A stretch of 32,000 nt of DNA. Source: Candidatus Nitronereus thalassa (GTDB lineage: Bacteria; Nitrospirota; Nitrospiria; Nitrospirales; UBA8639). The translations under genes and the position numbers were made by a program. Location of the stretch: assembly GCF_032191465.1 (NCBI RefSeq), contig NZ_JAQOUE010000002.1:546409-578408 (forward strand), read 5' to 3'. The notes beneath the pieces were generated by a model. It was not told where the DNA came from, searched no databases, and worked only from the letters and a program-made list of their open reading frames with translations. This document shows positions 858 through 31,584 of this stretch, in pieces (positions within the stretch are counted from its first letter, which is position 1; every line of letters starts with the position of its first letter).

Positions 858-1090
858 ACCGCCATTTCACATGATAGGGCCGTGATTGGGAACGCCACAC
901 CACTTAACCATAAAATAGCAAACAAAAAAAAGAAAGGGAGCGGTGGATTTGGCAATTAGAAGTATCCTGTGGCCCCTGAATTCCCCTTCCCGTCGTTCCC
1001 GACGTTTTTAATTGGGAGCCATATTGGCTTTTCACTGAAGGTAAGCAATTGGATGAAAGGATTTGTTTCGATTTTTTTATAGCAGTCCGT

Positions 1091-17592: not shown

Positions 17593-18969
17593 ATGACGCA
17601 TGACGTCTTAATCATCGGTGGAGGATCGGCGGGTTACGCCGCCGCTCGAACCGCTCGCGACGAAGGTGCGAATGTCGGTATTATCGACCATGGCCCGTTA
17701 GGCGGTCTGTGTATTCTCCGTGGATGCATGCCCACCAAGACCATCCTCCGGTCATCCGACATTATAGCGCTCATCAAGCGAGCCAACGAATTCGGCCTTT
17801 CTTCCGTTTCCCCAAAAGCCAATCTCTCCGCCATCATCGATCGTAAAGCCCGGCTCATCGGTGAATTTGCCGATGACCGCATTCAGGCATTGAAGGATTC
17901 ACGTTTTACCCTGTACGAAGAGCGGGCAAGGTTTGTCTCACCCCATGAGGTTCAGGTGGGAACCCAGACCCTGACCGCGAAAGCCTTTATCATTTCAACT
18001 GGTTCGGTTGTCTCGCGCATTCCCCTACCAGGCCTTGAAGAAGTTGGCTACATCACGAGTGATGAGGCATTGGAATTACGTGATTTACCAGAATCCATGA
18101 TCGTGCTGGGCGGGGGGGCGGTCGCCGTGGAACTGGCCCAATTCTTTTCACGCATTGGCACCAAGGTCACGCTCATTCAACGCAGCCGGCACATTATGTC
18201 CGAGGGCGATGAAGACTTGGCACGACCGGTCGAGGCTCGATTCCGCGAGGAAGGCATGACCGTCTATACCAATACCCAACTTCATCGGTTTACCAAGAAT
18301 GGCACACAGAAAGTCGCGCACTTTACCCATGACGGACAAGAAAAAACCGTCATGGCAGAGATTATCCTCCAAGCGCTTGGCCGACGACCGAATATCGATG
18401 GATTACATCTTGAAGCGGCCGGGATCAAAACAGAAAAGGGTAGGGTCGTGGTGGATAGGACCATGCGTACCAATCACCCCCACATCTTTGCCGTCGGCGA
18501 TGTGAATGGCCTACACGAGATTGTACACATTGCGATTGAACAAGGAGAAATCGCTGGATGGAATGCGATGCATGCCAATGATTCTCCACGCCGCTATGAC
18601 GATCGACTCAAAACACAGGTCGTTTTTACCGACCCACAAGTCGCCAGCGTGGGATTGAGCGAAAGAGAATGTAGGAGAGAGAATATTTCCTACATGACGG
18701 CATCCTATCCGTTTAACGATCACGGGAAATCCATGACGCTGGGTGAGACCCATGGGCATGTGAAGCTCCTGGCCGATCCTCTCACTGGAACCCTCCTTGG
18801 AGCACACATTGTTGGGCCAGAAGCGGCGGAGTTAATTCATGAACTCATTGCCGTGATGTATTTCTACGGCACGGTTCATGATCTGATGCGTATTCCCCAT
18901 TATCATCCCACCTTGGCCGAAATCATCACCTATCCCGCAGAGGAACTATTGGGACGCATCCCTAAATAA
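17593..18969 (+). CDS. Class-I pyridine nucleotide-disulfide oxidoreductase (Lpd/MerA-like, substrate unknown), paralog 1
   Basis: GGGSAGY FAD motif, redox-active CILRGC (CX4C), GGGAVAVE NAD(P)H motif, and the C-terminal HYHPTLAE dimerisation/His-Glu motif. Confidence 0.9.
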   Translation: MTHDVLIIGGGSAGYAAARTARDEGANVGIIDHGPLGGLCILRGCMPTKTILRSSDIIALIKRANEFGLSSVSPKANLSAIIDRKARLIGEFADDRIQALKDSRFTLYEERARFVSPHEVQVGTQTLTAKAFIISTGSVVSRIPLPGLEEVGYITSDEALELRDLPESMIVLGGGAVAVELAQFFSRIGTKVTLIQRSRHIMSEGDEDLARPVEARFREEGMTVYTNTQLHRFTKNGTQKVAHFTHDGQEKTVMAEIILQALGRRPNIDGLHLEAAGIKTEKGRVVVDRTMRTNHPHIFAVGDVNGLHEIVHIAIEQGEIAGWNAMHANDSPRRYDDRLKTQVVFTDPQVASVGLSERECRRENISYMTASYPFNDHGKSMTLGETHGHVKLLADPLTGTLLGAHIVGPEAAELIHELIAVMYFYGTVHDLMRIPHYHPTLAEIITYPAEELLGRIPK

Positions 18970-18980
18970 CAGCATCCCAT

Positions 18981-19748
18981 TTATTTCTCTTTGAAATCAT
19001 CAGCTCCACACCATGGACAGATGCCTTCTGTTTGGGCCCGCGATGGTGGAGTTGAAGTGACCTCTACCCCAACAGGAGCCTCGCCTTGAATGAGTCGCAC
19101 CCACCAAGCGGATCGATTCCGAAGAATCAACTTCGGCAAGAAAAGAAAAAGTCCGGCCAACAGCACACCAGAAACAATCACCGGCCATTGTAACGTAGGC
19201 ACACTTCCTCCCAAATAGGTCAACGCAAACGTCGGGGGAATCATTCCAAAAAGCGTAGCGATGGCAAAGGCTTTCAAGGACATCTTGGTCAGACCCGCAC
19301 CGTAGCTGATAATGTCGAAAGAAAATATGGGCAGGAGACGGGCTAAGAAGACGAGACCCAGGAGATGATGATCAGAGCACTTTTCACAAAAAGTGACGTT
19401 GGTTTTGAATAAACGGCCCAACACTTCGCGGCCCAATCCTCGTCCAATGAGAAAACTGAGAATGGCGCCGATCTCCGCTCCCGTCACGGCATACACCATA
19501 CCCCAAAAAGGTCCAAACGTGATTCCTGCTGCAATGTCCAATGGCAGGCTAGGTATTGGGCTCACGACCACTGCCAATACCATGAGCCCGATGAATACCA
19601 CAGGAGCCCAGCTCCCCAGGGATGCCAATTGACTCACGATGAAATCTGGTTCGGTCAGGACATCGACATCCAAAAACTCAACGATCCCATAGGCACCAAA
19701 AACTAAGAGGAGCAAAATTATCAGTTTCACCACATGAGCAGTTTTCAT
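18981..19748 (-). CDS. TVP38/TMEM64 (DedA superfamily) membrane protein with two CxxC motifs, paralog 1
   Basis: I chose the start MKTAHVVKLI at 19748. SNARE-associated-type core: GAEIGAILSFLIGRGLG, RLLPIFSFDIISYGAGLT. Extra motifs FCEKCSDHH and a C-terminal CPWC. Confidence 0.85.
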   Translation of the reverse strand: MKTAHVVKLIILLLLVFGAYGIVEFLDVDVLTEPDFIVSQLASLGSWAPVVFIGLMVLAVVVSPIPSLPLDIAAGITFGPFWGMVYAVTGAEIGAILSFLIGRGLGREVLGRLFKTNVTFCEKCSDHHLLGLVFLARLLPIFSFDIISYGAGLTKMSLKAFAIATLFGMIPPTFALTYLGGSVPTLQWPVIVSGVLLAGLFLFLPKLILRNRSAWWVRLIQGEAPVGVEVTSTPPSRAQTEGICPWCGADDFKEK

Positions 19749-20005
19749 TAAGTCATTCCTTAATCCAAAAGCATTCAACTCCCATACATAATCATAGACC
19801 ACTGTGACCCAGCTTTTGTGATGAGCCTTGCGTCCTCGAAGCGGAAAGCCTACGCTTTTTTACTTTGTTTTGTCATAATCATGAACGTTCACGGCAAGGC
19901 GAAAACCTGTAACAACTCCCCCGATGACAAGACTGTAGGAACAATGGCCGACATTCCCCACTCGTCACCGTCATTTCTTACCAATAATTGTTACGAGGTT
20001 TACCC

Positions 20006-20749
20006 ATGTCGCCATCAACTACGGAGACAATCATGACGACCTCCTCGCTACCCAATACCGCTCCCAATCCCTTTGGGAAAATCGTCCTCCTGAGCGTTCT
20101 TGGGCTGGGCATTGGAGCTTTTTTCTATTTTGACCTGGGACAATTTTTCTCTCTTGAGGCCTTAAAGAGCAATCGGGACAGACTTCTGGCCTATACCGAA
20201 GCCAATTTTGGCATGGCCATGGCCTTATTCATTCTGATTTATATTGTTCAAACAGGCTTTTCGTTGCCAGGTGGCGCGATCATGACTTTGGCCGGGGGGT
20301 TCCTCTTTGGAAGTTTTCTAGGAACAGTGTTGGTGAATGTCGGGGCCACCACAGGAGCTACGCTGGGATTTTTATCCGCCCGTTACTTGTTACGCGATTG
20401 GGTAGAAAAGAAATTTGGCGACCGCCTAGAATCTATTCAAGCAGGATTTGCCAAAAATGCTTTTAGTTACCTCATGACCTTGCGGCTCATTCCTGCGTTT
20501 CCCTTTTTTCTTGTCAACTTGGTATCCGGGTTAACCCGGATCAACATCGGAACTTATATCACCGCAACATCCCTGGGAATCATTCCAGGTAGTTTCGTCT
20601 TTGCGTTTGCCGGCAGGCAGCTGGGTACCATAAATTCATTGGGAGAGATTGCGTCTCCTCCCGTCCTTCTGGCGTTTACACTGCTTGGCGTCTTAGCTTT
20701 GATGCCCATCATTTATCGGAAATTCAATCAAACTAAAAATCCCCAATGA
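20006..20749 (+). CDS. TVP38/TMEM64 (DedA superfamily) membrane protein, paralog 2
   Basis: I chose ATG 20006, which follows ACGAGG. Core: GGFLFG, GATTGATLGFLSARYL, RLIPAFPFFLVNLVSGLT. Confidence 0.88.
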   Translation: MSPSTTETIMTTSSLPNTAPNPFGKIVLLSVLGLGIGAFFYFDLGQFFSLEALKSNRDRLLAYTEANFGMAMALFILIYIVQTGFSLPGGAIMTLAGGFLFGSFLGTVLVNVGATTGATLGFLSARYLLRDWVEKKFGDRLESIQAGFAKNAFSYLMTLRLIPAFPFFLVNLVSGLTRINIGTYITATSLGIIPGSFVFAFAGRQLGTINSLGEIASPPVLLAFTLLGVLALMPIIYRKFNQTKNPQ

Positions 20750-20832
20750 AGACAACCATTTCCAGAATAGTAACGACACACCAACAAGCCATGGTGTAAA
20801 GCGCAGTAAGGTCCTTTCAGGAAGGATGACTC

Positions 20833-22386
20833 ATGCAAACAGGTACCCAAAGAAACGACTTAGTCGAAATACCCCCCATGGATGAGTTCAACCATGCCTT
20901 AATCAACAATGTGCATCCGCCAACCTGGTTCAATCCTGAGCCCACTGGACGATACAACTTGGTCGTCATTGGGGCGGGTACTGCGGGACTCGTGACTGCA
21001 GCGGTAGCAGCGGCAGTGGGAGCAAAAGTGGCGTTGATTGAACGCCACTTGATGGGTGGCGATTGTCTCAACGTCGGATGCGTGCCTTCAAAAGGTGTGA
21101 TTCGAGCCTCCCGTGTGTGGGCGGAAATACACCATGCCGCAGAGTTCGGTCTGCATATTCCACAGGGAGTCAAGCGGGATTTCGGCACAGCCATGGCTCG
21201 AATGCGTAAATTGCGTGCCAAGATCAGTCATGTCGATTCTGCTCATCGCTACAAGGGGCTGGGCGTCGATGTGTTTATCGGGGAAGGTCGGTTTGCCGGA
21301 CCGGGAACCGTGGAAGTCGCCGGTAAAACCCTCGAATATGCCAAGGCAGTAATTTGCACGGGAGCTCGCGCAGCCGCGCCACCAATACCCGGCCTTGAAG
21401 AGGCCGGGTATCTCACCAATGAAACGATCTTTTCGCTCACGGAACTTCCCCCAAGACTTGCCGTTATTGGCGCCGGCCCCATCGGCTGCGAGATGGCCCA
21501 ATCCTTCACTCGTTTTGGGAGCCAAGTGTGCTTATTCGAACGAACCAATCATATCCTTCCGCGTGAAGATGCCGATGCCGCCGAGATCGTGCAAAAACAA
21601 ATGTCCAAGGAGGGGCAATGTTTCGTATTTAATTCAAACATCACAAATATAGAAACGCGCGGACAAGAGAAGATCGTACACTTCGAACAAGATGGAGAAA
21701 ACAAGGAACGTGTGTTTGATGAAATTCTTGTCGGCATCGGACGAGCGCCGAATGTCGAGAACCTCGGCCTGGACACCGTGGGTGTCGAGTTCGACAAACA
21801 ATCCGGCGTCAAAGTAAATTCCAAGCTCCAAACATCCAATCCAAAAATCTACGCAGCAGGCGACATCTGTTTTCCCTTTAAGTTTACCCACGCAGCGGAT
21901 GCTATGGCGCAAATTGTGATCCAAAATGCCTTATTCCCCCACCCCTTTGGATTGGGCTATGCGAGCACGGACTCCCTCATCATCCCCTGGGCCACTTATA
22001 CCGACCCCGAGATTGCCCATGTGGGACTCTATGAGCAGGAGGCAAAAGAAAAGGGCCTGGAGGTGGACACTTTCACATTTAAACTGGATGAAGTCGATCG
22101 TGCGATCTTAGATGGGGAAGATGAAGGATTTGCACGAGTCCATATCAAGAAAGGAACAGATACGATTCTCGGCGCCACCATTGTCGCAGCCCATGCGGGC
22201 GATATGATAAGCGAGATTACTTTGGCCATGAAGGGTGGATTAGGCCTAAGCACAATTACCGGCACGATCCACCCGTATCCCACGCAGGCTGAGGTGATAA
22301 AAAAAGTGGCGAATGCTTGGCGAAAAACCACGTTCACCGAAGGCAAGAAAAAATTCCTGACGAAACTCTTTGCCCGCATGCGATAA
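20833..22386 (+). CDS. Class-I pyridine nucleotide-disulfide oxidoreductase (mercuric-reductase-like core, not a canonical MerA), paralog 2
   Basis: GAGTAG FAD motif, GGDCLNVGCVPSK redox disulfide, GAGPIGCE, C-terminal IHPYPTQAE. It has a ~40-aa N-terminal extension (NNVHPPTWFNPEP). It has no GMTCxxC metal-binding domain and no C-terminal Cys-Cys pair. Confidence 0.9.
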   Translation: MQTGTQRNDLVEIPPMDEFNHALINNVHPPTWFNPEPTGRYNLVVIGAGTAGLVTAAVAAAVGAKVALIERHLMGGDCLNVGCVPSKGVIRASRVWAEIHHAAEFGLHIPQGVKRDFGTAMARMRKLRAKISHVDSAHRYKGLGVDVFIGEGRFAGPGTVEVAGKTLEYAKAVICTGARAAAPPIPGLEEAGYLTNETIFSLTELPPRLAVIGAGPIGCEMAQSFTRFGSQVCLFERTNHILPREDADAAEIVQKQMSKEGQCFVFNSNITNIETRGQEKIVHFEQDGENKERVFDEILVGIGRAPNVENLGLDTVGVEFDKQSGVKVNSKLQTSNPKIYAAGDICFPFKFTHAADAMAQIVIQNALFPHPFGLGYASTDSLIIPWATYTDPEIAHVGLYEQEAKEKGLEVDTFTFKLDEVDRAILDGEDEGFARVHIKKGTDTILGATIVAAHAGDMISEITLAMKGGLGLSTITGTIHPYPTQAEVIKKVANAWRKTTFTEGKKKFLTKLFARMR

Positions 22387-22419
22387 CCCCCAATGCCCTA
22401 TGGCAAAAAGGCCTAAACC

Positions 22420-23193
22420 ATGTCTGACCTCCATCGCTATAGCCCTCAACCTCTCAGCATTTTTGGCTTTTTCCTCTGTCTCATTAGTACCTTGTGGCTG
22501 CCTAGTGCCATAGCTGAAGAAAAATTAGAAATAGGATTATTTTCATCTGCCGAGCCGGAAGGATCTTTTCCTCAAGGATGGGAACCCCTCACCTTTGAAA
22601 AAATTCCTCAACACACCGCCTACGAGTTAGTCAAAGATGGTGGCACCGTCGTGGTCAAAGCCACCAGCAAGCAGTCATCATCTGGGCTCACTCGAAAGAT
22701 GAAGATTGATCCTAAACAATTTCCCATCGTTCAATGGCGGTGGAAAATAGAAAACATTATTCAAGGTAGTGATGTCACTAAAAAAGAAGGCGACGATTAC
22801 CCTGCCAGAATTTACATTACCTTTGAATACGATAGCAGCAAGGTGGGATTTTTCGAAAAGGCCAAATTCGAACTGATTCGCCTTGCCTATGGCCAATATC
22901 CCCCAACCGGGGCCATCAATTATATCTGGGAAAGTAAGGCTCCGATTGGTGCTGTAGTGCCCAACCCTTATACGGATTACGTTCAAATGATCGTGACGCA
23001 AAGCGGAAGCCAACGCGTCGGCGAATGGGTCATGGAGGAACACAATGTGTACGAAGACTACAAGAAAGCTTTTGGGGAGGAACCGACACATATTTCCGGT
23101 GTGGCCATCATGACAGACACCGACAACACCAAAGAATCCGCCATCGCATATTTTGGAGATATTCTTTTCAAACAATCGGCCACATCAGAATAA
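22420..23193 (+). CDS. Secreted DUF3047-like protein
   Basis: Signal peptide ends at PSAIA-EE. The pattern (GWEPLTF, TAYELVKDGG..VVKATS, QWRWKIEN, DDYPARIYITFEY) matches DUF3047 from memory. It starts 33 nt after the preceding reductase. Confidence 0.75.
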   Translation: MSDLHRYSPQPLSIFGFFLCLISTLWLPSAIAEEKLEIGLFSSAEPEGSFPQGWEPLTFEKIPQHTAYELVKDGGTVVVKATSKQSSSGLTRKMKIDPKQFPIVQWRWKIENIIQGSDVTKKEGDDYPARIYITFEYDSSKVGFFEKAKFELIRLAYGQYPPTGAINYIWESKAPIGAVVPNPYTDYVQMIVTQSGSQRVGEWVMEEHNVYEDYKKAFGEEPTHISGVAIMTDTDNTKESAIAYFGDILFKQSATSE

Positions 23194-23377
23194 ACCGTCG
23201 CCTGCTGGAATTTGTAAGGTTCTTCACAGAAATATTTTTATGAAGGGCGTAACATATAATCCTTTTTATTGACATACCAGGAACACTAGGAGCCCAACCC
23301 CAAAGCTGTGGGGTATTATCACCCTAACCACATCGCTCATTTTGAGGGACCTATCATTCCACAAGGAGGAGTTCATC

Positions 23378-23659
23378 ATGATATCCACAAAATCTATTCT
23401 TGTGAGCACTGCGCTCTCCAGTCTGTTGCTTGCCTCAACCGCCCATGCAGGGCCTGGCCACGAAGGGGGGCATGGCGATTCTGCCGCAGGCCAATGTCAT
23501 GGCGTGAACGCATGCAAGGGACATGGTGCCTGTAAAGGGGCCGGTCATTCCTGTGAAGGGAAAAACTCTTGCGAAGGGAAAGGCTGGCTAAAGATGTCCA
23601 AGGAAATGTGTGAAAAATTGAAAGACGGGAAGTGGACTCCCATGCCCCAAAAGAGCTAA
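23378..23659 (+). CDS. Exported 6-Cys/His-rich mini-protein, bufferin-precursor-like (DUF2282/BufA-type resemblance), copy 1
   Basis: AAGGAGGA precedes ATG 23378. The Sec signal peptide ends AHA-GPG. The mature part has C-x5-C-x5-C-x6-C-x5-C-x12-C with CHGVNACKG and NSCEGKGW. Confidence 0.8.
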   Translation: MISTKSILVSTALSSLLLASTAHAGPGHEGGHGDSAAGQCHGVNACKGHGACKGAGHSCEGKNSCEGKGWLKMSKEMCEKLKDGKWTPMPQKS

Positions 23660-23713
23660 TTCTGGAGCAGGGTTAGCATCGAAAAATATTTGTTGATCAG
23701 GAGGTGACCGACT

Positions 23714-24016
23714 ATGAATTCAAAACATCGTTTACTGACCAGCGCTGCACTCACGGGTCTCTTACTTGCCGCTGGATGTGCCCATCATGATAGCCATGGA
23801 GTCTATGGCAAAGGGGGCTCCCATGCCGCCCTGGGACAATGCCACGGCGTCAATGCCTGTAAAGGCAAGGGAGACTGTGCGTCCGCCACACACGATTGCT
23901 CCGGTGAAAACTCTTGTGAAGGTAAGGGCTGGATCAAAATGTCAAAAGCTATGTGTGGCGATATTAAAGGCAGCACCTGGAAGGCGATGCCAGAGAATAT
24001 GAAACACAAAGGCTAA
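23714..24016 (+). CDS. Lipoprotein 6-Cys/His-rich mini-protein, paralog of 23378-23659, copy 2
   Basis: CAGGAGG precedes ATG 23714. Lipobox LAAGC. The six-Cys spacing and core (GQCHGVNACKG.G.C.....H.C.G.NSCEGKGW.KMSK.MC) are identical to copy 1. Confidence 0.8.
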   Translation: MNSKHRLLTSAALTGLLLAAGCAHHDSHGVYGKGGSHAALGQCHGVNACKGKGDCASATHDCSGENSCEGKGWIKMSKAMCGDIKGSTWKAMPENMKHKG

Positions 24017-24035: not shown

Positions 24036-24075
24036 AAAAAGGCTGTGCATCATCCCGAGACGCACAGCCTTTTTT
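24036..24075. terminator. Bidirectional Rho-independent terminator between convergent genes
   Basis: Arms GGCTGTGC (24041-24048) and GCACAGCC (24062-24069), flanked by AAAAA (24036-24040) and TTTTTT (24070-24075). Confidence 0.75.
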
Positions 24076-24097: not shown

Positions 24098-24676
24098 CTA
24101 AAAATAATTCGGAGATCCCCCTGCCTTCCATTTAATATTACATCCGGCACTAGGCTTTTGATCCTGAGAGACGAGTTGTTTGGCCAACACCGCATCCATC
24201 GCAGCTCGCAAGTCTTTTCCCGTGACCGGCTTGCCATTGCCAGGACGGCTGTCATCTAACTGTCCACGATAGACCAACTGTTGATTGTCATCAAAAAGAA
24301 AAAAATCTGGCGTACAAGCTGCGGTAAATAACTTGGCAACCTCCTGTCCTTCATCATAGCAGTAGGGGAAGGAAAACCCGTTCTCCTGCGCCATCGCTTT
24401 TAATTGCTCTGGACGATCATCAGGATAATTTTCTATATCATTGCTACTGATGGCAATCATTGTAATCCCTTTTTCCCCATATTCCTTTCCCAACCGAGCA
24501 ATCTCTTCTTGCACATGGATGACATAGGGACAATGCCGACAGATAAACATCACTAGGGTGCCAGGATATCCAGCAAGTTGAGTTGAGGATATTTGTTTTC
24601 CCGTCACCACATCCGGCAACTCAAAATGGGGGAGGGAAGTTCCTAGTGGCAACATTGTGGATTTGGTCAAAGCCAT
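24098..24676 (-). CDS. Thioredoxin-fold (AhpC/TSA-like) protein
   Basis: 192 aa. Redoxin pattern: LPHFELPD, GTLVMFICRHCPYV (CxxC), with a conserved C-terminal GCNIKW. Confidence 0.85.
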   Translation of the reverse strand: MALTKSTMLPLGTSLPHFELPDVVTGKQISSTQLAGYPGTLVMFICRHCPYVIHVQEEIARLGKEYGEKGITMIAISSNDIENYPDDRPEQLKAMAQENGFSFPYCYDEGQEVAKLFTAACTPDFFLFDDNQQLVYRGQLDDSRPGNGKPVTGKDLRAAMDAVLAKQLVSQDQKPSAGCNIKWKAGGSPNYF

Positions 24677-24786: not shown

Positions 24787-25065
24787 TTACTCCTTTTTCC
24801 ATGTCCGAAATCGTTTAAGCAATTCTTCTCGAATATCGTCAGGTATGGGTTCCGCAGGAAGCTGCCCAAGCGTGCGAATCGTTGTCTTCATTTGAGACAA
24901 ATACGCGCGGCAACCTCGGCAAAAACCCAAATGGATTTGGAAACGAAGTCGTTCTGAAAAGGACAAACTTCCCTCCAGGAAATCCGTCATTAAATTCACC
25001 AAATCCTGGCAGGAAAAATTTCCCGCCATATAATGCATGATTTGACCTTTCAGTTCGTTCGACAT
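24787..25065 (-). CDS. Soluble ZAS-type (zf-HC2) anti-sigma factor
   Basis: The ATG at 25065 shares one base with the TGA of the sigma gene (TGATG). It has the H-x3-C-x2-C motif (HLGFCRGC) plus a Cys 26 residues upstream. I see no TM segment. Confidence 0.8.
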   Translation of the reverse strand: MSNELKGQIMHYMAGNFSCQDLVNLMTDFLEGSLSFSERLRFQIHLGFCRGCRAYLSQMKTTIRTLGQLPAEPIPDDIREELLKRFRTWKKE

Positions 25066-25754
25066 CAATGGGTTGCTTTCTTTTCAATTAGTTGCTGTTC
25101 GATGAATTTCCGCACTTTGGCCCTGGCTCGATGGAGCAAAACCCGTTGATTGGTCTCCGTAATCTCCAAAATATTACAGACATCTTTTGCATCCAGTTCT
25201 TCGATATCCCGCAAAGTCATTACATGGCGCTGAACCGGCGGCAGGGCATTAATGGCTTGTTGGATAAGCACACGGCTTTCTTTTGAAAGTAAGAGCCTTT
25301 CAGGGGTTTCCTCATCCCACATACTGGGCAGAGTTGACCAATGACCGGCTAAGGCACCGGATTGAATAAATCGGTCTGGTTCTCTCCATCCTTCATCATC
25401 ACCCTCTCCCTGTCCATCGCCTGAATCCAGAGACTCATACCGCCGCTCCCGCTGGCCGCGAGTTTTGGCCCTATTCGTCAAAATCCGAAACATCCACGTT
25501 TTCAACGATGACCGGCCTTCAAACCGTGGGAGACTCTCTAAGACGCCCTGCCAAGTTTCTTGCACCACTTCCTCAGCCACAGCTCGAGAAGGCACATAGG
25601 CCATGGCTAAGCGTAACAACGCCCCATAGTATGTCTCAATCAAAAACCCAAAGGCTGATTCATTCCCTTGTCGTAATGCTTCCACGAGCACCTGCTCCTC
25701 CTTCCATTTTCCGGAAGGGGAGCCCGACGATTGTTGAGTATCCTCTTCCTGCAT
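25065..25754 (-). CDS. ECF-type RNA polymerase sigma-70 family factor
   Basis: Region 2 (EEVVQETWQGVLESLPRF, SLKTWMFRILTNRA) and region 4 (LPPVQRHVMTLRDIEELDAKDVCNILEITETNQRVLLHRAR) are joined by a long acidic linker. Confidence 0.9.
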   Translation of the reverse strand: MQEEDTQQSSGSPSGKWKEEQVLVEALRQGNESAFGFLIETYYGALLRLAMAYVPSRAVAEEVVQETWQGVLESLPRFEGRSSLKTWMFRILTNRAKTRGQRERRYESLDSGDGQGEGDDEGWREPDRFIQSGALAGHWSTLPSMWDEETPERLLLSKESRVLIQQAINALPPVQRHVMTLRDIEELDAKDVCNILEITETNQRVLLHRARAKVRKFIEQQLIEKKATH

Positions 25755-26005
25755 AATGCCTTCCCGATTTTCTCATCCATCGGCACACGTGGGGGATACC
25801 GGCACGCATTCAAGCAAAGGAACCGAGTCTGCTATGAGCCGGAAGCATTATGGCTAGGGAGGGGTGATGAATCAAGACCAAGCGGATTGGAGTAAGCCCC
25901 CATCAGCTTTCTTGATATCAGAAAAAAATAAACAGACGGAGAAGGGAAAGCTTGAATACAACTCGGCAAAATGGGGTGGGCAAGGCAAGCCGAAATGACT
26001 AGCAA

Positions 26006-27569: not shown

Positions 27570-27879
27570 ACCGGCCTCCTTTCCCAATTTCTAGTTTTAA
27601 AAAATTTTGTTCATCACAATTTAGTGAAAACCCGGTGAAAATCTGGATATGTTTAGTTACCAGCCTAGTCTCATGCTACATCTCATTTTCGGAATATGTC
27701 AATAGAATACTTTAGGTATTTATTCTTAATCATGATTCTCTTTCTCAACTTCGCTGAGATGGACTCTCAAGTTCGCTGATATGAATTTTCAACTTCAGCT
27801 TACACCAGGATCGAGAGAGGGACAGAAAGTCACGAGGCATCGGTTGACCGATATTCTTGGCCAGTGCTACCGTCCCCCT

Positions 27880-30800
27880 ATGTCCTCACCCACCACCAAT
27901 CGTCCACCCAATCGTCTCATCCACGAAACCAGCCCCTATTTACTTCAGCATGCGCACAACCCTATTGATTGGTATCCTTGGGGCAAGGACGCACTCTCAC
28001 GAGCCCAGACTGAAGACAAACCTATTCTCTTATCCATAGGATATTCGGCCTGCCATTGGTGCCATGTGATGGAACGTGAATCGTTTGAGAATGAGGAAAT
28101 CGCTAAACTCATGAATCAGGACTATGTCTGTATCAAAGTGGACCGAGAGGAACGCCCCGACCTCGATGAAATTTACATGCAAGCTACGTTGGCCATGAAC
28201 CAAGGCAACGGGGGATGGCCCATGACGGTATTCCTCACCCCCGACCAACAACCCATCTTTGCCGGCACGTATTTTCCACCGACTGATAAATGGGGACGCC
28301 CGGGTTTTAGTACTGTGCTAAAAAAAATCGCGGAAGGTTGGCATAAAGACCGAGCCGAAATTGTGGACACTGCTTCACGGTTTACCGCGAAACTCCAGAA
28401 ATCCATTCAAGTTCCCTCTCCCACTACCATTGGGCAGGATGAACTGGATGCCGGAACTGAACAATTTGCGAAACATTTCGATCCCGTGTTTGGCGGATTT
28501 GGGCAAGCCCCAAAATTCCCTCCTGCCACCGGACTCTCGTTTTTACTTCGCCAATATCATCACACGGGCAACGAACATACCCTAACCATGGTTCGAAAAA
28601 CCTTGGACGCCATGGCCGCTGGCGGAATGTATGACCACATTGCCGGTGGGTTTTCTCGCTATTCCACAGATGAACGTTGGCTAGTCCCGCATTTCGAAAA
28701 AATGTTGTACGACAATGCCCTTCTCGCCAAAACTTACGTCGAAGCCTTTCAAGTCACTCAAGCGGACAACTACCGGCGAGTCGCCACTGAAATTCTCGAT
28801 TACATAATTCGAGAAATGACGTCTCCGGAGGGAGGATTTTATTCAGCCACTGATGCGGACTCGGAAGGCGTGGAAGGAAAATTTTTTGTTTGGGACCCCG
28901 AACAAATTAAAGCGATTGTTCCATCTGAAGAAGACGCGAAACGCTTTTGCGCCTACTATGACATTACCGATGAAGGCAATTGGGAACATCATAGTATCCC
29001 CAATACCCCTCGTGCTCTTGATGCTGTCGCTCAAGAAATAGACTGCTCGCCAGAGGAACTGCAACAAACAATAGACCGTGTGCGTCCCCTCGTCTATCAG
29101 GCCCGATTAACTCGAGTTCCCCCAGGGCTCGACGATAAAATCATCACCGCGTGGAATGGAATGATGATCAGCACCATGGCCGAAGCCAGTCGAGTATTTG
29201 GTCACCCTCAATATTTGCAAGCTGCCACCAACGCCGCGGATTTTCTTCTTCGAACGCTTTCAAGGCCAGATGGTGGTCTGTTTCGCACCTATCGGGAGAA
29301 CAAAGCCCATCTCGATGCATATCTTGAAGATTATGCGTTTCTCATCGAAGCCTTGATAGATATCTATGAAGCAGGCGGAAGCGAACACTATTTATCCGAG
29401 GCCGTTCGATTGGCTGAACGGCTGCTCCAAGATTTTTCCGATCAAGAATACGGTGGATTTTTCACCACGGCAAAAGATCATGAAACCCTCATCCTCCGAA
29501 GCCGTGAAGGCCCCGATGGCGCCACTCCTAGCGGAAATGCCGTGGCCGCCACGGCGCTGGCCAGACTCTCGTTTCATTTCGGACGAGAAGATTTACGTGA
29601 CGCCGCAACACAAGCCATTCGTGCCTATGGCCAACAAATCGCCCAAATCCCGCGCGGCTTTGCGAAAACCTTGATTGCCTCTGATTTACTACTCAAAGGC
29701 CCAATTGAATTAGCGTTAGTCGGAAGCCCTGAGGGCCACCAGGCATTGGAAGCCCTTTCAAAAGAACTGAGGCGTCATTTCGTGCCGAATCGAATTATCG
29801 CTCATTATGATCCTCAAAACTCCAAAACCTCGCATCCTCTTCTGAAAGACAAAACCTTAGTTAATGGACAGCCAGCGCTTTATATCTGCAAAAATTTCGC
29901 CTGTGCCGCTCCCCTTACCGACCCGAAACTGATCAAACAGGCTTTGGCCCATCAGCTTCATCCTGATCCGGATCAACCAACAACCCAAACCACCACACTC
30001 AAAACTTCCGGCATCACCGGAAAAGCGACGGCACAGGGAACGGCAGCCTATGTTTCACGCATGTTGTCCCACTCCAAGTCCAACCGCCCATCAGCTTCCG
30101 GGTATGGTCCTTTGGGATCAACGGGGTTGACGACCTCTCGAATTGGATTTGGAGGATACCGTATTACGGAAGGTCACGATGAACACCGAGAAGCCTTACG
30201 TAAAGCCTTGCGTGAGGGATGCAATATCATTGATACCTCAACGAACTATACGGATGGTAGCAGTGAACGTTTGATTGGGCAGGTGATCAAGGAATTACTG
30301 CAGGCTCAAGAAATGACTCGCGAAGAAGTGATCGTGGTTTCGAAGATTGGCTATGTACAAGGCCAGAACCTGGCTCGCGCGGAAACCAAAGAGCAAACCG
30401 GACATCCATATCCTGATATGGTGAAATATGGCGAAGGGTTGTGGCATTGCCTCCACCCTGAATTTCTTGAGGATCAGTTTGCGCTATCACTGGATCGTTT
30501 GGGGTTGGAAACACTGGACGTGTGCTTACTGCACAACCCTGAATATTTTCTTTCCGACGTTAAAAACCAGAAGCTCATCGTGGATAACGAAAAGCTCCAA
30601 GAACTGCGAAACGAATTTTACCGTCGACTACAACAAGCCTTCGAGTATTTTGAGACGCAAGTCACCGCAGGACGCCTACAATACTATGGCGTCTCATCCA
30701 ACACCTCGACGACCTCTCCCGATGATCCCGAAGCCACCTCACTCTCTCGCATCTATGAATGTGCCAAAGCCGCGGGCAACACTCTTGGAAAATCTTTCCC

Positions 30801-31584
30801 TGCATTCCGAGTCTTGCAACTCCCCATGAACTTGTTTGAATCAGGGGCATTACTCACTCCCAACACTGGCAGCGACACCTCCAAGACAGTTTTGGAATTT
30901 GCACAACAAGAACAGATCGCCATACTTGTCAATCGACCACTCAATGCCATCCCCTCAAAACATCGCGGCATGATTCGATTGGCCAATCCCCACACGGAAC
31001 CCGTGGAATCAACTTTTGAGGAGCTATACGAACAACTTGGAACCTTGGAAGAGGAATTTCGGGAAAAATTCGTCCCGCATATTCCTTACTCCGGCAAGGG
31101 CCTCGAGCCAAAAGACTTTTTCTCATTCACCGAGGAACTGAAAAATCTACGACCCCGCCTCCAGGGACTTGAACACTGGGATCAGATTGAATCACAGATG
31201 ATCGCCCCACATGTCAATCAAGCGCTTCAAGTCGTCTCCAAACACCTTGGCGAGGACCACGCGAATGCCTGGAGCAATTGGCAACACCGCTACATTCCAA
31301 AACTTTTGACCTTTTTTCTGGTGTTGCGAAAAGAATCTGCACAAAAAAACCGTGAGGCGATTTCTGCAATATCAGGACTCATCGATCCCCATCTACCGAA
31401 GGATAAACGCTCCGAATCCATTTCCTCCAAATCTCTCTGGATATTAACCAGCACCTCAGGAGTTACCTGTGTCCTCAACGGCATGAGAACATCTGCCTAT
31501 GTTGAAGAAGCACTCAAGGTCTTACACTGGGCGCCCCTTTCCAACCCCCGAGATGTGTTTGAAAAAATCAGAAATCCTCAATAG
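27880..31584 (+). CDS. Fusion protein: DUF255/YyaL thioredoxin-fold plus (alpha/alpha)6-barrel protein fused to an aldo/keto reductase domain
   Basis: A single uninterrupted frame. N-terminal: [43 protein letters not shown], and an ending of [14 protein letters not shown]-terminal: AKR pattern with all four catalytic residues ([23 protein letters not shown]). The start is uncertain (27880 or 27781). Confidence 0.85.

What the first reader, a model, noticed from the sequence alone, without database searches (positions are those of the whole stretch)
17593..23193. Two paralogous TVP38/DedA + flavoprotein disulfide reductase pairs, followed by a secreted DUF3047 protein
**Seen in the sequence**
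- Reductase 1 (CILRGC, HYHPTLAE) ends 11 nt from the convergent TVP38-1.
- After a ~260-bp divergent promoter region, three co-directional genes follow: TVP38-2, reductase 2 (83 nt later; CLNVGC, HPYPTQAE) and a signal-peptide DUF3047 protein (33 nt later).
- Neither reductase has the MerA hallmarks (N-terminal GMTCxxC domain, C-terminal Cys pair).
- No 2-oxoacid dehydrogenase E1/E2 genes are nearby.

**From memory**
- TVP38/TMEM64-FAD oxidoreductase fusion proteins exist in public annotations. That would make this adjacency a Rosetta-stone pair.
- DedA-family proteins have been linked to lipid/undecaprenyl-phosphate flipping and to selenite/tellurite phenotypes.
- I know of no defined biochemical function for the TVP38 + reductase (+ DUF3047) combination.

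**Inference**
- The duplication in one locus, beside Cys-rich exported proteins and a thiol-sensing sigma system, suggests a membrane-coupled disulfide, metal or metalloid reduction module.
Basis: partly seen in the sequence, partly recalled or inferred. Interest (0 to 1): 0.72.

Follow-up and report, generated by a model that had tools for sequence, protein, structure and literature searches.

The report
DedA–reductase–DUF3047 metal(loid) stress module
A marine nitrite-oxidising bacterium carries a conserved three-gene set (a membrane DedA/TVP38 protein, a cytoplasmic disulfide reductase and a periplasmic DUF3047 protein) that comparative genomics ties to an organo-arsenic-type pathway and to a copper-peptide stress regulon, giving testable functions to three poorly understood protein families.

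Summary
They are not a duplicated pair of pairs: the reductases share 31% identity and the TVP38 proteins 29%, and only TVP38-2–Red2–DUF3047 is a conserved operon (28 of 37 informative Nitrospirota loci, 0 of 23 elsewhere).

Gene fusions link the parts: TVP38–DUF3047, [Fe-S/CCG]–TVP38–DUF3047, [Fe-S/CCG]–TVP38, TIGR04283–DUF3047 and DUF2064–DUF3047. Outside Nitrospirales these genes sit in operons with ArsS radical-SAM, TIGR04282 and TIGR04283 ('arsenosugar biosynthesis'), ArsM-like and rhodanese genes.

In this genome a σF-like ECF promoter motif (GTAAC-N17-GAC) precedes TVP38-2, TVP38-1, the two downstream 'Cys-rich exported proteins' (BufA2 bufferin precursors) and a second locus: Mo-oxidoreductase–DUF547–BufB–BufC–rSAM–di-iron-like protein–TIGR04283.

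Best reading: the triad is the membrane and redox arm of an ArsS/TIGR04283-type system, here under an ECF/ZAS metal-stress switch shared with bufferins. The biochemistry is still inferred. I rate it a new variant of a catalogued but largely uncharacterised kind, interest about 0.68.

The parts
17593..18969 (+). Red1: class-I flavoprotein disulfide reductase paralogue (CILRGC; HYHPTLAE; QRS NADPH-type loop; no C-terminal tail)
   Evidence: Pfam and NCBIfam: below every curated cut-off, best is lipoamide_DH at 390.7 against 408.8. Conserved next to a TPR lipoprotein only in the marine clade. 31% identical to Red2. Motifs.
18981..19802 (-). TVP38-1: DedA/VTT-domain membrane protein of a distinct subfamily with two conserved CxxC motifs (FCEKC loop; C-terminal CPWCG)
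   Evidence: PF09335 E = 4e-27. The CxxC motifs are conserved in 6 orthologues and absent from TVP38-2. Convergent with Red1. Its position varies among relatives.
19970..19994 (-). ECF-type promoter motif GTAAC-N17-GAC pointing toward TVP38-1
   Evidence: Exact pattern hit. A like-oriented hit lies upstream of TVP38-1 in L049. Less certain than the + strand site.
19909..19933 (+). ECF-type promoter motif GTAAC-N17-GAC(T) of the TVP38-2–Red2–DUF3047 operon
   Evidence: 3 hits in the window against 0.36 expected. Same motif and spacing upstream of TVP38-2 in L001, L003, L004, L005, L006 and L049. Resembles the Caulobacter σF site GTAACC-N16-CGAA (PMC3511200).
19988..20749 (+). TVP38-2: DedA/VTT-domain (COG0398-type) membrane protein, first gene of the conserved triad
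   Evidence: PF09335 E = 1.6e-24. Far below the UptA cut-off, 25.6 against 250. Triad conserved in 28 of 37 Nitrospirota loci. Fused to DUF3047 in Manganitrophaceae.
20833..22386 (+). Red2: NF004991-family FAD disulfide reductase (GGDCLNVGC; HPYPTQAE; Glu NADH-type loop) with a conserved N-terminal motif and a basic amphipathic C-terminal tail
   Evidence: NF004991 800 bits against cut-off 620; MerA 390 against 454; Lpd 383.5 against 408.8. Extensions and motifs conserved in 23 orthologues, including Manganitrophus. Nearest PDB entries are MerA 5x1y and Lpd.
22420..23193 (+). DUF3047: membrane-anchored or secreted periplasmic β-jelly-roll protein
   Evidence: PF11249 E = 1.6e-82. AF2 pLDDT 93.5. 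Foldseek neighbours are CBM4/CBM22, the Emp47p lectin and the C5-epimerase β-domain, at about 11% identity. Fused after a TM helix to TIGR04283, DUF2064 or TVP38.
23249..23273 (+). ECF-type promoter motif GTAAC-N17-GAC upstream of bufA2a
   Evidence: The same motif lies upstream of bufA2 in L001 and L003.
23342..23659 (+). BufA2a: Buf2-type bufferin precursor (signal peptide plus Cys-rich core); likely start is ATG 23378
   Evidence: NF050166 63.0 bits against cut-off 60. Sequence.
23714..24016 (+). BufA2b: second Buf2-type bufferin precursor
   Evidence: NF050166 62.3 bits against cut-off 60.
24040..24075 (.). Bidirectional intrinsic terminator closing the + strand unit and the convergent redoxin gene
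   Evidence: Hairpin -24.4 kcal/mol, z = -5.9, followed by a U-tract. No terminator lies in the TVP38-2/Red2/DUF3047 intergenic gaps.
24098..24676 (-). AhpC/TSA–redoxin-family thiol oxidoreductase, last gene of the σ/anti-σ operon
   Evidence: PF00578 and PF08534. Conserved with the σ module in L001, L003-L006, L014, L024 and L049.
24787..25068 (-). Soluble 93-aa ZAS-type anti-sigma factor (HLGFCRGC = HxxxCxxC)
   Evidence: PF13490 zf-HC2. NF052368 47.4 against 50. A homologue lies next to the Manganitrophus module.
25065..25754 (-). ECF sigma factor, candidate regulator of the GTAAC-N17-GAC promoters
   Evidence: Sigma70_r2 and r4_2. TIGR02937 95 against 42.9. 31% identical to the ECF σ beside the Manganitrophus module.
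25847..25875 (-). σ70-type promoter (TTGATT-17-CATAAT) of the sigma operon
   Evidence: Conserved in L001, L003, L005, L024 and L049. This implies the σ gene is not driven by its own ECF-type motif.

Best explanation
TVP38-2, Red2 and DUF3047 form one conserved, membrane-spanning module.

**The three parts**
- Red2 is a cytoplasmic, probably NADH-dependent flavoprotein disulfide reductase. It has a CxxxxC redox disulfide and a His-Glu dyad. Its family-specific N-terminal motif and basic amphipathic C-terminal tail probably dock it on the membrane or on the transporter (inferred).
- TVP38-2 is a DedA-family translocator.
- DUF3047 is a lectin/CBM-like β-jelly-roll held on the periplasmic face by an N-terminal helix.

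**The wider system**
The module is the membrane and redox arm of the widespread system built around TIGR04283 (GT2), TIGR04282 (DUF2064) and an ArsS-type radical-SAM enzyme. NCBI names this system 'arsenosugar biosynthesis'; JGI calls it 'rSAM/selenodomain-associated'. In other lineages an unrelated HdrD-like Fe-S/CCG oxidoreductase, fused to TVP38, takes the reductase role. The conserved requirement is therefore a disulfide-type reduction at the cytoplasmic mouth of the transporter.

**The variant in this genome**
In Nitrospirales the partner genes are an rSAM/SPASM enzyme, DUF547, a di-iron-like protein and TIGR04283. In Ca. Nitronereus these lie at a second locus, interleaved with bufB and bufC.

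**Proposed working (inferred)**
1. Metal(loid) or thiol stress releases the ECF σ from its soluble ZAS anti-σ.
2. The σ fires GTAAC-N17-GAC promoters in front of TVP38-1, TVP38-2–Red2–DUF3047, bufA2a–bufA2b and the Mo-oxidoreductase–DUF547–bufBC–rSAM–TIGR04283 string.
3. On the cytoplasmic side, Red2 keeps a thiol-reactive (metalloid-bearing or dithiol) substrate or carrier reduced, while the GT2 builds a glycosylated, probably lipid-linked, product.
4. TVP38 moves the product, or the metalloid substrate, across the membrane.
5. DUF3047 binds or processes the head group in the periplasm, alongside the copper-buffering bufferins.

**Shown versus inferred**
- Shown: gene content, conservation, fusions, topology logic and the shared promoter motif.
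- Inferred: the substrate, the direction of transport, the catalytic role of DUF3047 and the inducing signal.
For: **Conservation**
- The triad is present in 28 of 37 Nitrospirota species-level loci with enough flank.
- A permuted version exists in Ca. Manganitrophus: a VTT–DUF3047 fusion followed by the Red2 orthologue (42% identity, best family NF004991). ECF σ, ZAS anti-σ, ArsS (443 bits) and TIGR04169 (193 bits) lie within 5 kb.

**Fusions**
- VTT–DUF3047 (about 23 clusters).
- Fer4-CCG–VTT–DUF3047 (P0294, P0296).
- Fer4-CCG–VTT (about 12 clusters).
- TIGR04283–TM–DUF3047 (at least 12 clusters; 272 and 234 bits against cut-off 182).
- DUF2064–DUF3047 (P0369).
- Sources.
- Literature: PF07992/PF02852 are the commonest fusion partners of COG0398 DedA proteins (PMC10127716).

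**Operons outside Nitrospirales**
- L017: TVP38–ArsS–TIGR04283–TIGR04282–DUF3047.
- L055, L070, L069, L032, L046, L077 and L081.
- L088: rhodanese–[triple fusion]–rSAM–GT2–DUF2064–SelR.
- L090: GT2–DUF3047–[DUF2064-ArsS]–[Fer4-CCG-VTT].
- L092: rhodanese–[Fer4-CCG-VTT]–GT2–rhodanese–ArsS.

**Topology**
- Every fusion places one extra TM helix, after a positively charged loop, before DUF3047.
- The stand-alone protein has an N-terminal hydrophobic helix.

**Regulon**
- The GTAAC-N17-GAC motif has 3 hits in the window against 0.36 expected, all in promoter positions.
- A fourth copy lies 30 nt upstream of the second-locus operon.
- The motif is conserved upstream of TVP38-2 in 7 of 7 marine-clade loci, and upstream of bufA2 in 3 of the 4 that have bufA2.
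- It resembles the Caulobacter σF site GTAACC-N16-CGAA. That σF drives both bufferin operons and a Mo-oxidoreductase (PMC3511200; PMC11626156).

**Red2 chemistry**
- Invariant CLNVGC and HPYPTQAE motifs and conserved family-specific extensions.

**ArsS**
- ArsS adenosylates DMAs(III) (PMC13598754).
Against: - No experiment exists on any component in this arrangement.
- The 'arsenosugar' name of TIGR04282 and TIGR04283 rests on association with ArsS only.
- The Nitrospirales loci lack ArsS, TIGR04282 and a clear ArsM. They use a SPASM-type rSAM, DUF547 and a di-iron-like protein instead, so their chemistry may differ from the deltaproteobacterial systems.
- In this genome the GT2 partner genes are not adjacent. 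They lie on another assembly contig (L086), and nothing relevant lies within 10 kb to the right of the window.
- The promoter motif is short (8 fixed bases). Over all 81 loci its count equals chance (29 observed, about 31 expected). Its weight therefore comes only from position and recurrence in the marine clade.
- The σ gene has a σ70-like promoter, so the σ-to-motif assignment is by proximity and by analogy with σF.
- The anti-σ is a ZAS protein, not NrsF.
- The structural neighbours of DUF3047 are generic jelly-rolls (TM about 0.5, 11% identity). They name no activity.
- The 80 loci surveyed were the best-scoring hits, so the sample is biased toward Nitrospirales.
Confidence: 0.5

Rival explanations
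1. The triad is an accessory part of bufferin (Buf2) biology. Red2 would keep the Cys-rich precursors or the thiooxazole products reduced, TVP38 would aid export or membrane handling, and DUF3047 would be a periplasmic chaperone or receptor for the mature copper-binding peptides. On this reading the link to ArsS-type systems is secondary.
For: - The bufA2 genes lie directly downstream, share the promoter motif, and no terminator separates them from DUF3047.
- In L001 the string TVP38–Red2–DUF3047–DUF547–bufA–bufB–bufC–rSAM–hyp221–GT2 is contiguous.
- In Nitronereus, bufB and bufC are embedded among DUF547, rSAM and TIGR04283.
- MNIO and DUF2063 genes lie near the triad in L009, L011, L012, L052 and L078.
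- The analogy with the σF–bufferin regulon holds.
Against: - Most freshwater Nitrospira triads have no adjacent bufferin genes.
- DUF3047, TIGR04283 and TVP38 systems in Deltaproteobacteria and other phyla have no bufferin genes at all.
- The published bufferin BGC survey finds additional conserved genes only in very low proportions, and its text does not mention DedA or 'oxidoreductase' at all (PMC12452194).
- Bufferins are Sec-exported and need no DedA.
Confidence: 0.17
2. The module is a carrier-lipid glycosylation pathway of the Gtr/Arn type with no metalloid chemistry. TIGR04283 would make a polyprenyl-phosphate sugar, TVP38 would flip it or recycle undecaprenyl phosphate, and DUF3047 would be the periplasmic transferase or hydrolase that decorates an envelope polymer. 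The reductase would be only a regulatory or protective add-on.
For: - Some DedA proteins are undecaprenyl-phosphate flippases, and eukaryotic ones are scramblases (PMC10127716).
- The next-best NCBIfam hits of TIGR04283 are polyprenyl-phosphate and GT-A transferases: AglJ, ArnC-like and PpgS.
- The GT2–TM–DUF3047 fusions mimic a cytoplasmic-GT / periplasmic-domain logic.
- DUF3047 has a carbohydrate-binding-module-like fold with conserved Trp, Tyr and Asp residues.
Against: - TVP38-1 and TVP38-2 score far below the UptA cut-offs: 37 and 26 bits against 250. They belong to the COG0398 branch, not the UndP-flippase branch COG0586.
- This reading does not explain the repeated, non-homologous recruitment of disulfide-reductase-type partners (FAD type or HdrD-like).
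- It also does not explain the recurrent ArsS, ArsM, rhodanese, AhpD-like and SelD/SelR neighbours.
Confidence: 0.15
3. The reductases are ordinary housekeeping enzymes, such as dihydrolipoyl dehydrogenase (the glycine-cleavage L protein), a low-molecular-weight thiol disulfide reductase, or a MerA-like mercuric reductase as often annotated. On this reading their adjacency to TVP38 and DUF3047 has no functional meaning.
For: - Both have canonical class-I FDR motifs. Their nearest solved relatives are MerA and Lpd.
- Red1 falls only 18 bits short of the Lpd cut-off (390.7 against 408.8), has no ECF motif upstream, and is not in an operon with a TVP38 gene.
Against: - Red2 meets a separate curated family (NF004991, 800 against 620) and fails the Lpd, GR, MerA, mycothione and RclA cut-offs.
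- Both lack the MerA C-terminal Cys pair and the NmerA domain.
- Red2 synteny with TVP38 and DUF3047 holds across 28 species and in permuted form in Manganitrophus.
- Red2 has conserved family-specific extensions.
- No E1/E2 genes lie in the window.
- This reading remains open for Red1 alone.
Confidence: 0.1

Closest known systems
ArsS / TIGR04282 / TIGR04283 / TIGR04169 neighbourhood (NCBI 'arsenosugar biosynthesis'; JGI 'rSAM/selenodomain-associated transferases')
   Same: - DUF3047 and TVP38 with a redox partner are embedded in, or fused to, these genes in Deltaproteobacteria, Manganitrophus and metagenomic contigs.
- Nitrospirales, including this genome, carry TIGR04283 in the co-regulated partner locus.
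   Different: - The window contains none of the named families.
- Nitrospirales lack ArsS and TIGR04282. They use a SPASM rSAM, DUF547 and a di-iron-like protein.
- Only ArsS has a demonstrated reaction, adenosylation of DMAs(III) (PMC13598754).
- No paper I could find in the held library describes TVP38, the reductase or DUF3047 as part of this system.
COG0398 (YdjX/TVP38-type) DedA proteins fused to pyridine nucleotide-disulfide oxidoreductase domains (Todor et al. 2023, PMC10127716)
   Same: The same two domain families are involved. Here they are split into adjacent genes in one operon.
   Different: - Here a third obligatory partner, DUF3047, is present.
- A non-homologous Fe-S/CCG alternative to the flavoprotein is documented.
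- Regulatory and pathway contexts are defined.
- The paper proposed only a vague link to aerobic metabolism.
Caulobacter σF–NrsF heavy-metal regulon controlling the bufferin operons buf1 and buf2 and a Mo-oxidoreductase (PMC3511200; PMC11626156)
   Same: - An ECF σ sits beside bufferin genes.
- The promoter has a GTAAC -35 element and identical spacing.
- The regulon includes bufferin genes and an Oxidored_molyb gene.
   Different: - The anti-σ is a small soluble ZAS protein, not the membrane protein NrsF (DUF1109).
- The -10 element differs: GAC(T) here, CGAA there.
- The σ gene is not preceded by its own motif.
- The regulon additionally contains TVP38, Red2, DUF3047, DUF547, rSAM and TIGR04283.
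- The published survey found σ/anti-σ genes with Buf1 BGCs but not Buf2 BGCs (PMC12452194).
Mercuric reductase MerA and dihydrolipoyl dehydrogenase (nearest solved structures 5x1y, 1ebd, 2eq6)
   Same: The class-I FDR fold, the FAD and NAD(P)H domains, the CxxxxC redox disulfide and the dimerisation domain. Like Lpd, both reductases have the His-Glu dyad.
   Different: - No NmerA domain and no C-terminal Cys pair.
- Both fall below the MerA and Lpd curated cut-offs.
- Red2 has a unique N-terminal motif and a basic C-terminal tail with no Cys.

Membership tests
Mercuric reductase MerA (TIGR02053) | Whole-protein score at or above the curated cut-off of 454.45 bits | tested here: not met
   Red1 374.0 bits; Red2 390.4 bits
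Mercuric reductase MerA (TIGR02053) | C-terminal Cys-Cys pair that hands Hg(II) to the active site, with an optional N-terminal HMA (NmerA) domain | tested here: not met
   The C-termini are ...EELLGRIPK (Red1) and ...KLFARMR (Red2), with no Cys. Pfam finds no HMA domain.
Dihydrolipoyl dehydrogenase (TIGR01350) | Score at or above 408.8 bits | tested here: not met
   Red1 390.7 bits; Red2 383.5 bits
Dihydrolipoyl dehydrogenase (TIGR01350) | Partner E1/E2 or glycine-cleavage genes | tested here: inconclusive
   None lie in the 32-kb window or in the +10 kb extension. The rest of the genome was not examined.
Class-I flavoprotein disulfide reductases (Pyr_redox_2 + Pyr_redox_dim) | FAD and NAD(P)H Rossmann domains, a dimerisation domain, a CxxxxC redox disulfide and a C-terminal HxxxxE dyad | tested here: met
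   PF07992 and PF02852 are strong for both. CILRGC with HYHPTLAE in Red1, CLNVGC with HPYPTQAE in Red2, conserved in orthologues.
NF004991 (PRK06370.1-3) FAD-containing oxidoreductase subfamily | Score at or above 620 bits over the full 509-position profile | tested here: met
   Red2 scores 800.2 bits over profile positions 4-504. Red1 scores 303 bits, not met. The Manganitrophus orthologue scores 516 bits, its best family but below the cut-off.
DedA superfamily, COG0398/TVP38 branch | VTT domain (PF09335) | tested here: met
   TVP38-1 95.6 bits; TVP38-2 87.2 bits; cut-off 33.9
Undecaprenyl-phosphate flippase UptA (NF052604/NF052605) | Score at or above 250 or 300 bits | tested here: not met
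   36.9 and 25.6 bits
DUF3047 (PF11249) | Full-length match above 27 bits | tested here: met
   276.3 bits over profile positions 2-197 of 198
ArsS/TIGR04282/TIGR04283 'arsenosugar biosynthesis' system | ArsS radical-SAM enzyme (TIGR04167) in the locus or genome | tested here: not met
   ArsS is absent from the window and from all Nitrospirales loci surveyed. Their rSAM is SPASM/MoaA-like. ArsS is present beside the module in Manganitrophus (443 bits), L017, L070, L090 and L092. The whole Nitronereus genome was not searched.
ArsS/TIGR04282/TIGR04283 'arsenosugar biosynthesis' system | TIGR04283 GT2 glycosyltransferase | tested here: met
   Not in the window, but present in this genome. NCBI names P0504 as TIGR04283 [Ca. 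Nitronereus thalassa]. It is 63% identical to the L001 orthologue, which scores 198 bits against cut-off 182.
ArsS/TIGR04282/TIGR04283 'arsenosugar biosynthesis' system | TIGR04282 (DUF2064) transferase | tested here: not met
   Not found in the Nitrospirales loci. The 221-225-aa protein in that position carries ExxH motifs and matches no family.
ArsS/TIGR04282/TIGR04283 'arsenosugar biosynthesis' system | Production of organo-arsenic sugars or lipids | not testable with these tools
   Needs As speciation (HPLC-ICP-MS) in cultures or heterologous hosts.
Buf2 bufferin biosynthetic gene cluster | BufA2 precursor (NF050166, at least 60 bits) | tested here: met
   63.0 and 62.3 bits for the two tandem genes
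Buf2 bufferin biosynthetic gene cluster | Adjacent MNIO (BufB) and DUF2063 (BufC) maturases | tested here: not met
   Absent from the window. Present at the second locus L086 as MbnB_TglH_ChrH and HvfC_N.
σF-type ECF metal-stress regulon | ECF σ with the membrane anti-σ NrsF (DUF1109) and a GTAACC-N16-CGAA promoter | tested here: inconclusive
   An ECF σ is present. The anti-σ is zf-HC2/ZAS, not NrsF. The promoter shares the GTAAC -35 element and the spacing but has a different -10 element. σ-promoter specificity is untested.

The most novel reading that the evidence does not exclude
COG0398 DedA/TVP38 proteins, obligatorily coupled to a disulfide-type reductase (flavoprotein or HdrD-like) and to the periplasmic jelly-roll DUF3047, form the trans-membrane arm of a widespread pathway. 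That pathway would make or handle organo-metalloid (As/Se) glycoconjugates or lipids. In nitrite oxidisers it has been rewired, with a different radical-SAM enzyme and a di-iron protein, into a σF-like copper and metal stress regulon shared with bufferins. If true, this would give the first defined biochemical role to bacterial TVP38-type DedA proteins, to DUF3047, DUF547 and NF004991 reductases. It would also show that the 'arsenosugar' gene set is a much larger envelope-spanning system.
Probability: 0.3. Interest if true: 0.85.

Novelty: new variant of a known kind. Interest (0 to 1): 0.68.

Why it matters
- **DedA/TVP38 proteins.** They are nearly universal, yet only one bacterial branch (the undecaprenyl-phosphate flippases) has a function. 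The COG0398 branch is known only for unexplained fusions to disulfide reductases.
- **What this locus adds.** The locus and its relatives give a concrete parts list:
  - transporter, reductase and periplasmic DUF3047;
  - a partner enzyme set (TIGR04283, TIGR04282, ArsS-type or SPASM radical-SAM, DUF547);
  - a candidate switch (ECF σ / ZAS anti-σ with a defined promoter motif).
- **What becomes testable.** These turn an open question into experiments.
- **Wider links.**
  - It extends the barely characterised 'arsenosugar' gene set across the membrane.
  - It connects that gene set with the bufferin copper-stress response in globally important marine nitrite oxidisers.

Tried and rejected
- **The search for related loci with the 41-sequence DUF3047 alignment** failed because no stretch was conserved enough. 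It worked with an 11-sequence alignment.
- **An autoregulated ECF promoter upstream of the σ gene** was sought. A conserved σ70-like TTGATT-17-(C/G)ATAAT was found instead.
- **The promoter motif across all 81 loci** is not enriched overall (29 hits, about 31 expected). I therefore rely only on its promoter-position recurrence in the marine clade and at the second locus.
- **A motif copy inside the 3' end of the σ gene** in six relatives probably reflects the conserved coding sequence NILEITET. I did not use it.
- **hyp221/225 as a divergent TIGR04282/DUF2064**: rejected. The conserved ExxH pairs and a weak RNR-β hit point to a di-iron-like protein.
- **YdjY, next to a Fer4-CCG-TVP38 fusion, as a DUF3047 homologue**: rejected (hhalign probability 0.2).
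- **Extending the window 10 kb to the right** found only housekeeping genes.
- **Rfam** found no structured RNA in the window.
- **Literature searches** for DUF3047, TVP38 with mercuric reductase, TIGR04282/TIGR04283 and Nitronereus found no functional study of this gene set.
- **TVP38–flavoprotein fusion proteins** were not retrieved directly, because the top-120 limits are dominated by close Nitrospirales orthologues. That point rests on PMC10127716.

Full report
**1. Observation**

- Red1 lies at 17593-18969 (+).
- TVP38-1 lies at 18981-19802 (-). It is convergent with Red1, 11 nt between the stop codons.
- A divergent intergenic region of 185-284 bp follows, depending on the start codons used.
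- TVP38-2 lies at 19988-20749 (+), Red2 at 20833-22386 (+, 83 nt later) and DUF3047 at 22420-23193 (+, 33 nt later).

Pfam assigns Pyr_redox_2 and Pyr_redox_dim to both reductases, VTT_dom to both membrane proteins, and PF11249 (E = 1.6e-82) to the last gene. Neither reductase has an HMA domain or a C-terminal Cys pair. No E1/E2 genes occur in the window. The organism is Candidatus Nitronereus thalassa, a marine member of the Nitrospirales: protein P0001 is 100% identical and carries the NCBI name.

**2.

- The two 'Cys-rich exported proteins' downstream (23342-23659 and 23714-24016) are BufA2-type bufferin precursors. They score 63.0 and 62.3 bits on NF050166 against a cut-off of 60.
- They are followed by a strong bidirectional terminator.
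- On the other strand lie an AhpC/TSA-type redoxin, a 93-aa soluble ZAS anti-σ (HxxxCxxC) and an ECF σ.
- The bufferin maturases BufB (MNIO) and BufC (DUF2063) are not in the window.

**3. The two 'pairs' are not equivalent**

Red1 and Red2 are 31% identical. TVP38-1 and TVP38-2 are 29% identical over 139 residues.

Red2 belongs to the curated subfamily NF004991 (800 bits against a cut-off of 620). It fails the MerA, Lpd, GR, mycothione and RclA cut-offs. Red1 is below every cut-off; its best score is Lpd at 390.7 against 408.8.

Red2 orthologues share:
- an invariant GGDCLNVGC motif and an invariant HPYPTQAE motif;
- a Glu after the NAD-binding β2 strand, which is Lpd-like and suggests NADH;
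- a conserved ~35-residue N-terminal motif;
- a basic amphipathic C-terminal tail.

Red1 has CILRGC, a QRS loop (NADPH-like) and no tail.

TVP38-1 orthologues conserve two CxxC motifs: FCExC in a loop and CxxCG at the C-terminus. TVP38-2 has neither.

**4. Conservation**

A scan of one genome per GTDB species with a DUF3047 alignment found 593 relatives, of which the best 80 loci were kept. I analysed them by phmmer synteny and by unbiased clustering of neighbour genes.
- The order TVP38–Red2–DUF3047 occurs in 28 of 37 Nitrospirota loci with enough upstream sequence.
- It occurs in 0 of 23 loci from other phyla.
- Red1, with a TPR lipoprotein, is confined to the marine clade nearest the window. 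TVP38-1 is variably placed.

So the triad, not the 'double pair', is the conserved unit.

**5. Fusions tie the parts together**

- DUF3047 representatives include proteins with TVP38 at the N-terminus (P0131, P0147), with a GT2 at the N-terminus (P0148, P0192) and with an α/β-hydrolase at the N-terminus.
- The fused GT2 is TIGR04283 (272 and 234 bits against a cut-off of 182).
- A search seeded with P0131 showed the following:
  - TVP38–DUF3047 fusions throughout Ca. Manganitrophus and the Manganitrophaceae;
  - 790-aa proteins with the order Fer4–CCG–TVP38–DUF3047;
  - about a dozen Fer4–CCG–TVP38 proteins;
  - at least 12 TIGR04283–DUF3047 fusions, which JGI names 'rSAM/selenodomain-associated transferase 2';
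  - one DUF2064–DUF3047 fusion.
- In every fusion a single extra TM helix, after a positively charged loop, precedes DUF3047. DUF3047 is therefore extracytoplasmic, while the GT2, DUF2064 and Fe-S domains are cytoplasmic.
- The literature already lists PF07992/PF02852 as the commonest fusion partners of COG0398 DedA proteins, without assigning a function (PMC10127716).
- Two unrelated disulfide-reductase-type partners, the flavoprotein and the HdrD-like CCG protein, are thus recruited to the same TVP38 clade. This is the strongest hint to the chemistry.

**6. Pathway context**

Outside Nitrospirales, DUF3047 lies in operons with curated 'arsenosugar biosynthesis' families.

| Locus | Gene order |
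|---|---|
| L017 | TVP38–ArsS (445 bits)–TIGR04283 (285)–TIGR04282 (200)–DUF3047 |
| L055 | [rSAM–ArsM-like–MbdU-like]–TIGR04282–DUF3047–TIGR04283 |
| L070 | DUF3047–ArsS–TIGR04283–TIGR04282 |
| L069 | DUF3047 beside ArsM-like and ArsS-cluster genes |
| L032, L046, L077, L081 | TIGR04282 and/or TIGR04283 adjacent to DUF3047 |
| L088 | rhodanese–[triple fusion]–rSAM–GT2–DUF2064–SelR |
| L090 | GT2–DUF3047–[DUF2064–ArsS fusion]–[Fer4–CCG–TVP38] |
| L092 | rhodanese–[Fer4–CCG–TVP38]–GT2–rhodanese–ArsS |
| L085 | [Fer4–CCG–TVP38]–YdjY–unknown–SelD (E = 2e-84) |

Ca. Manganitrophus noduliformans has [TVP38–DUF3047] followed by the Red2 orthologue (42% identity). ECF σ, ZAS anti-σ, ArsS (443 bits) and the AhpD-like TIGR04169 (193 bits) lie within 5 kb.

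In Nitrospira the triad is typically followed by rSAM/SPASM–DUF547–a 221-aa protein–TIGR04283. The 221-aa protein has two conserved ExxH motifs and matches no family.

ArsS is the only component with a demonstrated reaction, the adenosylation of DMAs(III) (PMC13598754).

**7. The rest of the system in this genome**

Ca. Nitronereus has a TIGR04283 orthologue, P0504. Its locus (L086) reads: methyltransferase–Mo-oxidoreductase (SorA/SoxC-like)–DUF547–MNIO/BufB–BufC–rSAM/SPASM–hyp225–TIGR04283.

In the related genome L001 the same genes are contiguous with the triad: TVP38–Red2–DUF3047–DUF547–bufA–bufB–bufC–rSAM–hyp221–GT2. The window therefore holds half of a split supercluster. The 'orphan' bufA2 genes have their maturases at the other half.

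**8. Regulation**

Upstream of TVP38-2, seven marine-clade loci conserve GTAAC-N17-GAC(T) in otherwise diverged sequence.
- The exact pattern occurs three times in the window against 0.36 expected. One copy lies before TVP38-2, one points toward TVP38-1, and one lies before bufA2a.
- It recurs before bufA2 in L001 and L003 and before TVP38-1 in L049.
- It also lies 30 nt upstream of the Mo-oxidoreductase gene that heads the L086 operon.

The motif matches the -35 element and the spacing of the Caulobacter σF site GTAACC-N16-CGAA. That σF drives both bufferin operons and a Mo-oxidoreductase under metal stress (PMC3511200; PMC11626156).

The adjacent ECF σ gene sits behind a conserved σ70-like promoter. 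No terminator separates TVP38-2 from bufA2b.

Caveats:
- The motif has only eight fixed bases.
- It is not enriched over all 81 loci.
- The σ assignment is by proximity and analogy.
- The anti-σ is a ZAS protein, not NrsF.

**9. DUF3047 structure**

AlphaFold2 with a 41-sequence alignment gives pLDDT 93.5 and pTM 0.86: an N-terminal helix followed by a β-jelly-roll. Foldseek against the PDB returns the following, all at TM about 0.4-0.5 and roughly 11% identity:
- CFAP20-type jelly-rolls;
- the β-domain of glucuronyl C5-epimerase;
- CBM4-2 and CBM22;
- the Emp47p lectin.

The invariant residues are rich in Trp, Tyr and Asp: W54, W106, W108, D125, D126, R130, Y168, W170, W203, D213, D233 and D235. 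This fits a site that binds or processes a carbohydrate or head group, or a metal site. It names no activity.

**10. Synthesis**

- Shown:
  - a conserved three-gene operon;
  - fusion and neighbourhood links that join TVP38, a disulfide-reductase-type partner, DUF3047, TIGR04283, TIGR04282 and ArsS-type rSAM genes into one system;
  - an inside-to-outside topology;
  - a promoter motif shared with bufferin genes and with the partner locus.
- Inferred: that Red2 reduces a thiol-reactive or metalloid-bearing substrate or carrier at the transporter's cytoplasmic mouth, that TVP38 moves a (glyco)lipid-linked or metalloid species, that DUF3047 handles it in the periplasm, and that metal(loid) or thiol stress is the signal.
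- Rivals are weaker but not excluded: a bufferin accessory role, plain carrier-lipid glycosylation, and housekeeping reductases. The housekeeping reading stays open for Red1 alone.

**11. Novelty**

The domain fusion and the family names are public. No paper in the searchable library describes DUF3047, TVP38 or NF004991 as parts of the ArsS/TIGR04283 system, or as members of a bufferin/ECF regulon. I class the finding as a new variant of a catalogued but largely uncharacterised kind.

Noticed in passing
window 23342-24016; L086 6710-8336: Two tandem BufA2 bufferin precursor genes lie in the window without BufB or BufC. The only maturase genes found in this genome sit at a separate locus, interleaved with DUF547, an rSAM/SPASM gene and TIGR04283. 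The published survey notes that orphan precursors are common, but not this interleaving.
   Followed up: yes
window 18981-19802 (-): The TVP38-1 subfamily carries four conserved cysteines: FCExC in a loop and CxxCG at the cytoplasmic C-terminus. This may be a built-in metal or redox site replacing a separate reductase partner.
   Followed up: partly
L086 9352-10029; L001 12738-13403; alignment A3: A conserved 221-225-aa protein between the rSAM and TIGR04283 genes has no Pfam or NCBIfam match. It has two invariant ExxH motifs and a weak hit to ribonucleotide reductase β. It is probably a new ferritin-like di-iron enzyme family.
   Followed up: partly
L085 10001-14258: A Fer4–CCG–TVP38 fusion is followed, co-directionally, by YdjY, a 148-aa unknown protein and SelD (selenophosphate synthetase). 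This echoes the E. coli ydjXYZ operon and hints at a selenium link for TVP38 proteins.
   Followed up: partly
L088 7578-7994; L090 9932-10447; L092 6802-7965 and 10615-11508: Rhodanese-domain genes recur immediately beside the Fer4–CCG–TVP38 genes in ArsS-type clusters.
   Followed up: no
L004 9793-9817, L005 9388-9412, L006 9984-10008, L024 3482-3506, L025 2678-2702, L042 9622-9646: The GTAAC-N17-GAC pattern also occurs inside the 3' end of the ECF σ gene, upstream of the anti-σ gene. It may be an internal promoter, or just the conserved codons for NILEITET. The exact match is absent from the window.
   Followed up: no
window 27781-31584 (+): A 1267-aa protein fuses a DsbH/DUF255 thioredoxin domain, a six-hairpin glycosidase- or epimerase-like region and an aldo-keto reductase domain. 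It lies next to a Dps/ferritin gene and a LuxR regulator.
   Followed up: no
window 1063-2145 (+): An IS110-family transposase (DEDD_Tnp_IS110 plus Transposase_20) lies near the left end of the window.
   Followed up: no
L052 7715-9791: One Nitrospira genome has a second Red2–DUF3047 pair without a TVP38 gene, just downstream of a bufferin MNIO/DUF2063 pair and upstream of the rSAM–DUF547–hyp221–GT2 genes.
   Followed up: no
L009, L011, L023, L051, L053, L054, L057, L060, L061, L074, L075 (cluster 8): An Oxidored_molyb (SorA/MsrP-like) gene recurs within a few kb of the triad in freshwater Nitrospira. This parallels the Mo-oxidoreductase in the Caulobacter σF regulon and at L086.
   Followed up: partly
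window 19909-19994: The two putative ECF promoters in the divergent region face each other, so the predicted transcription starts cross by about 20 nt. In L049 they are arranged back to back.
   Followed up: no
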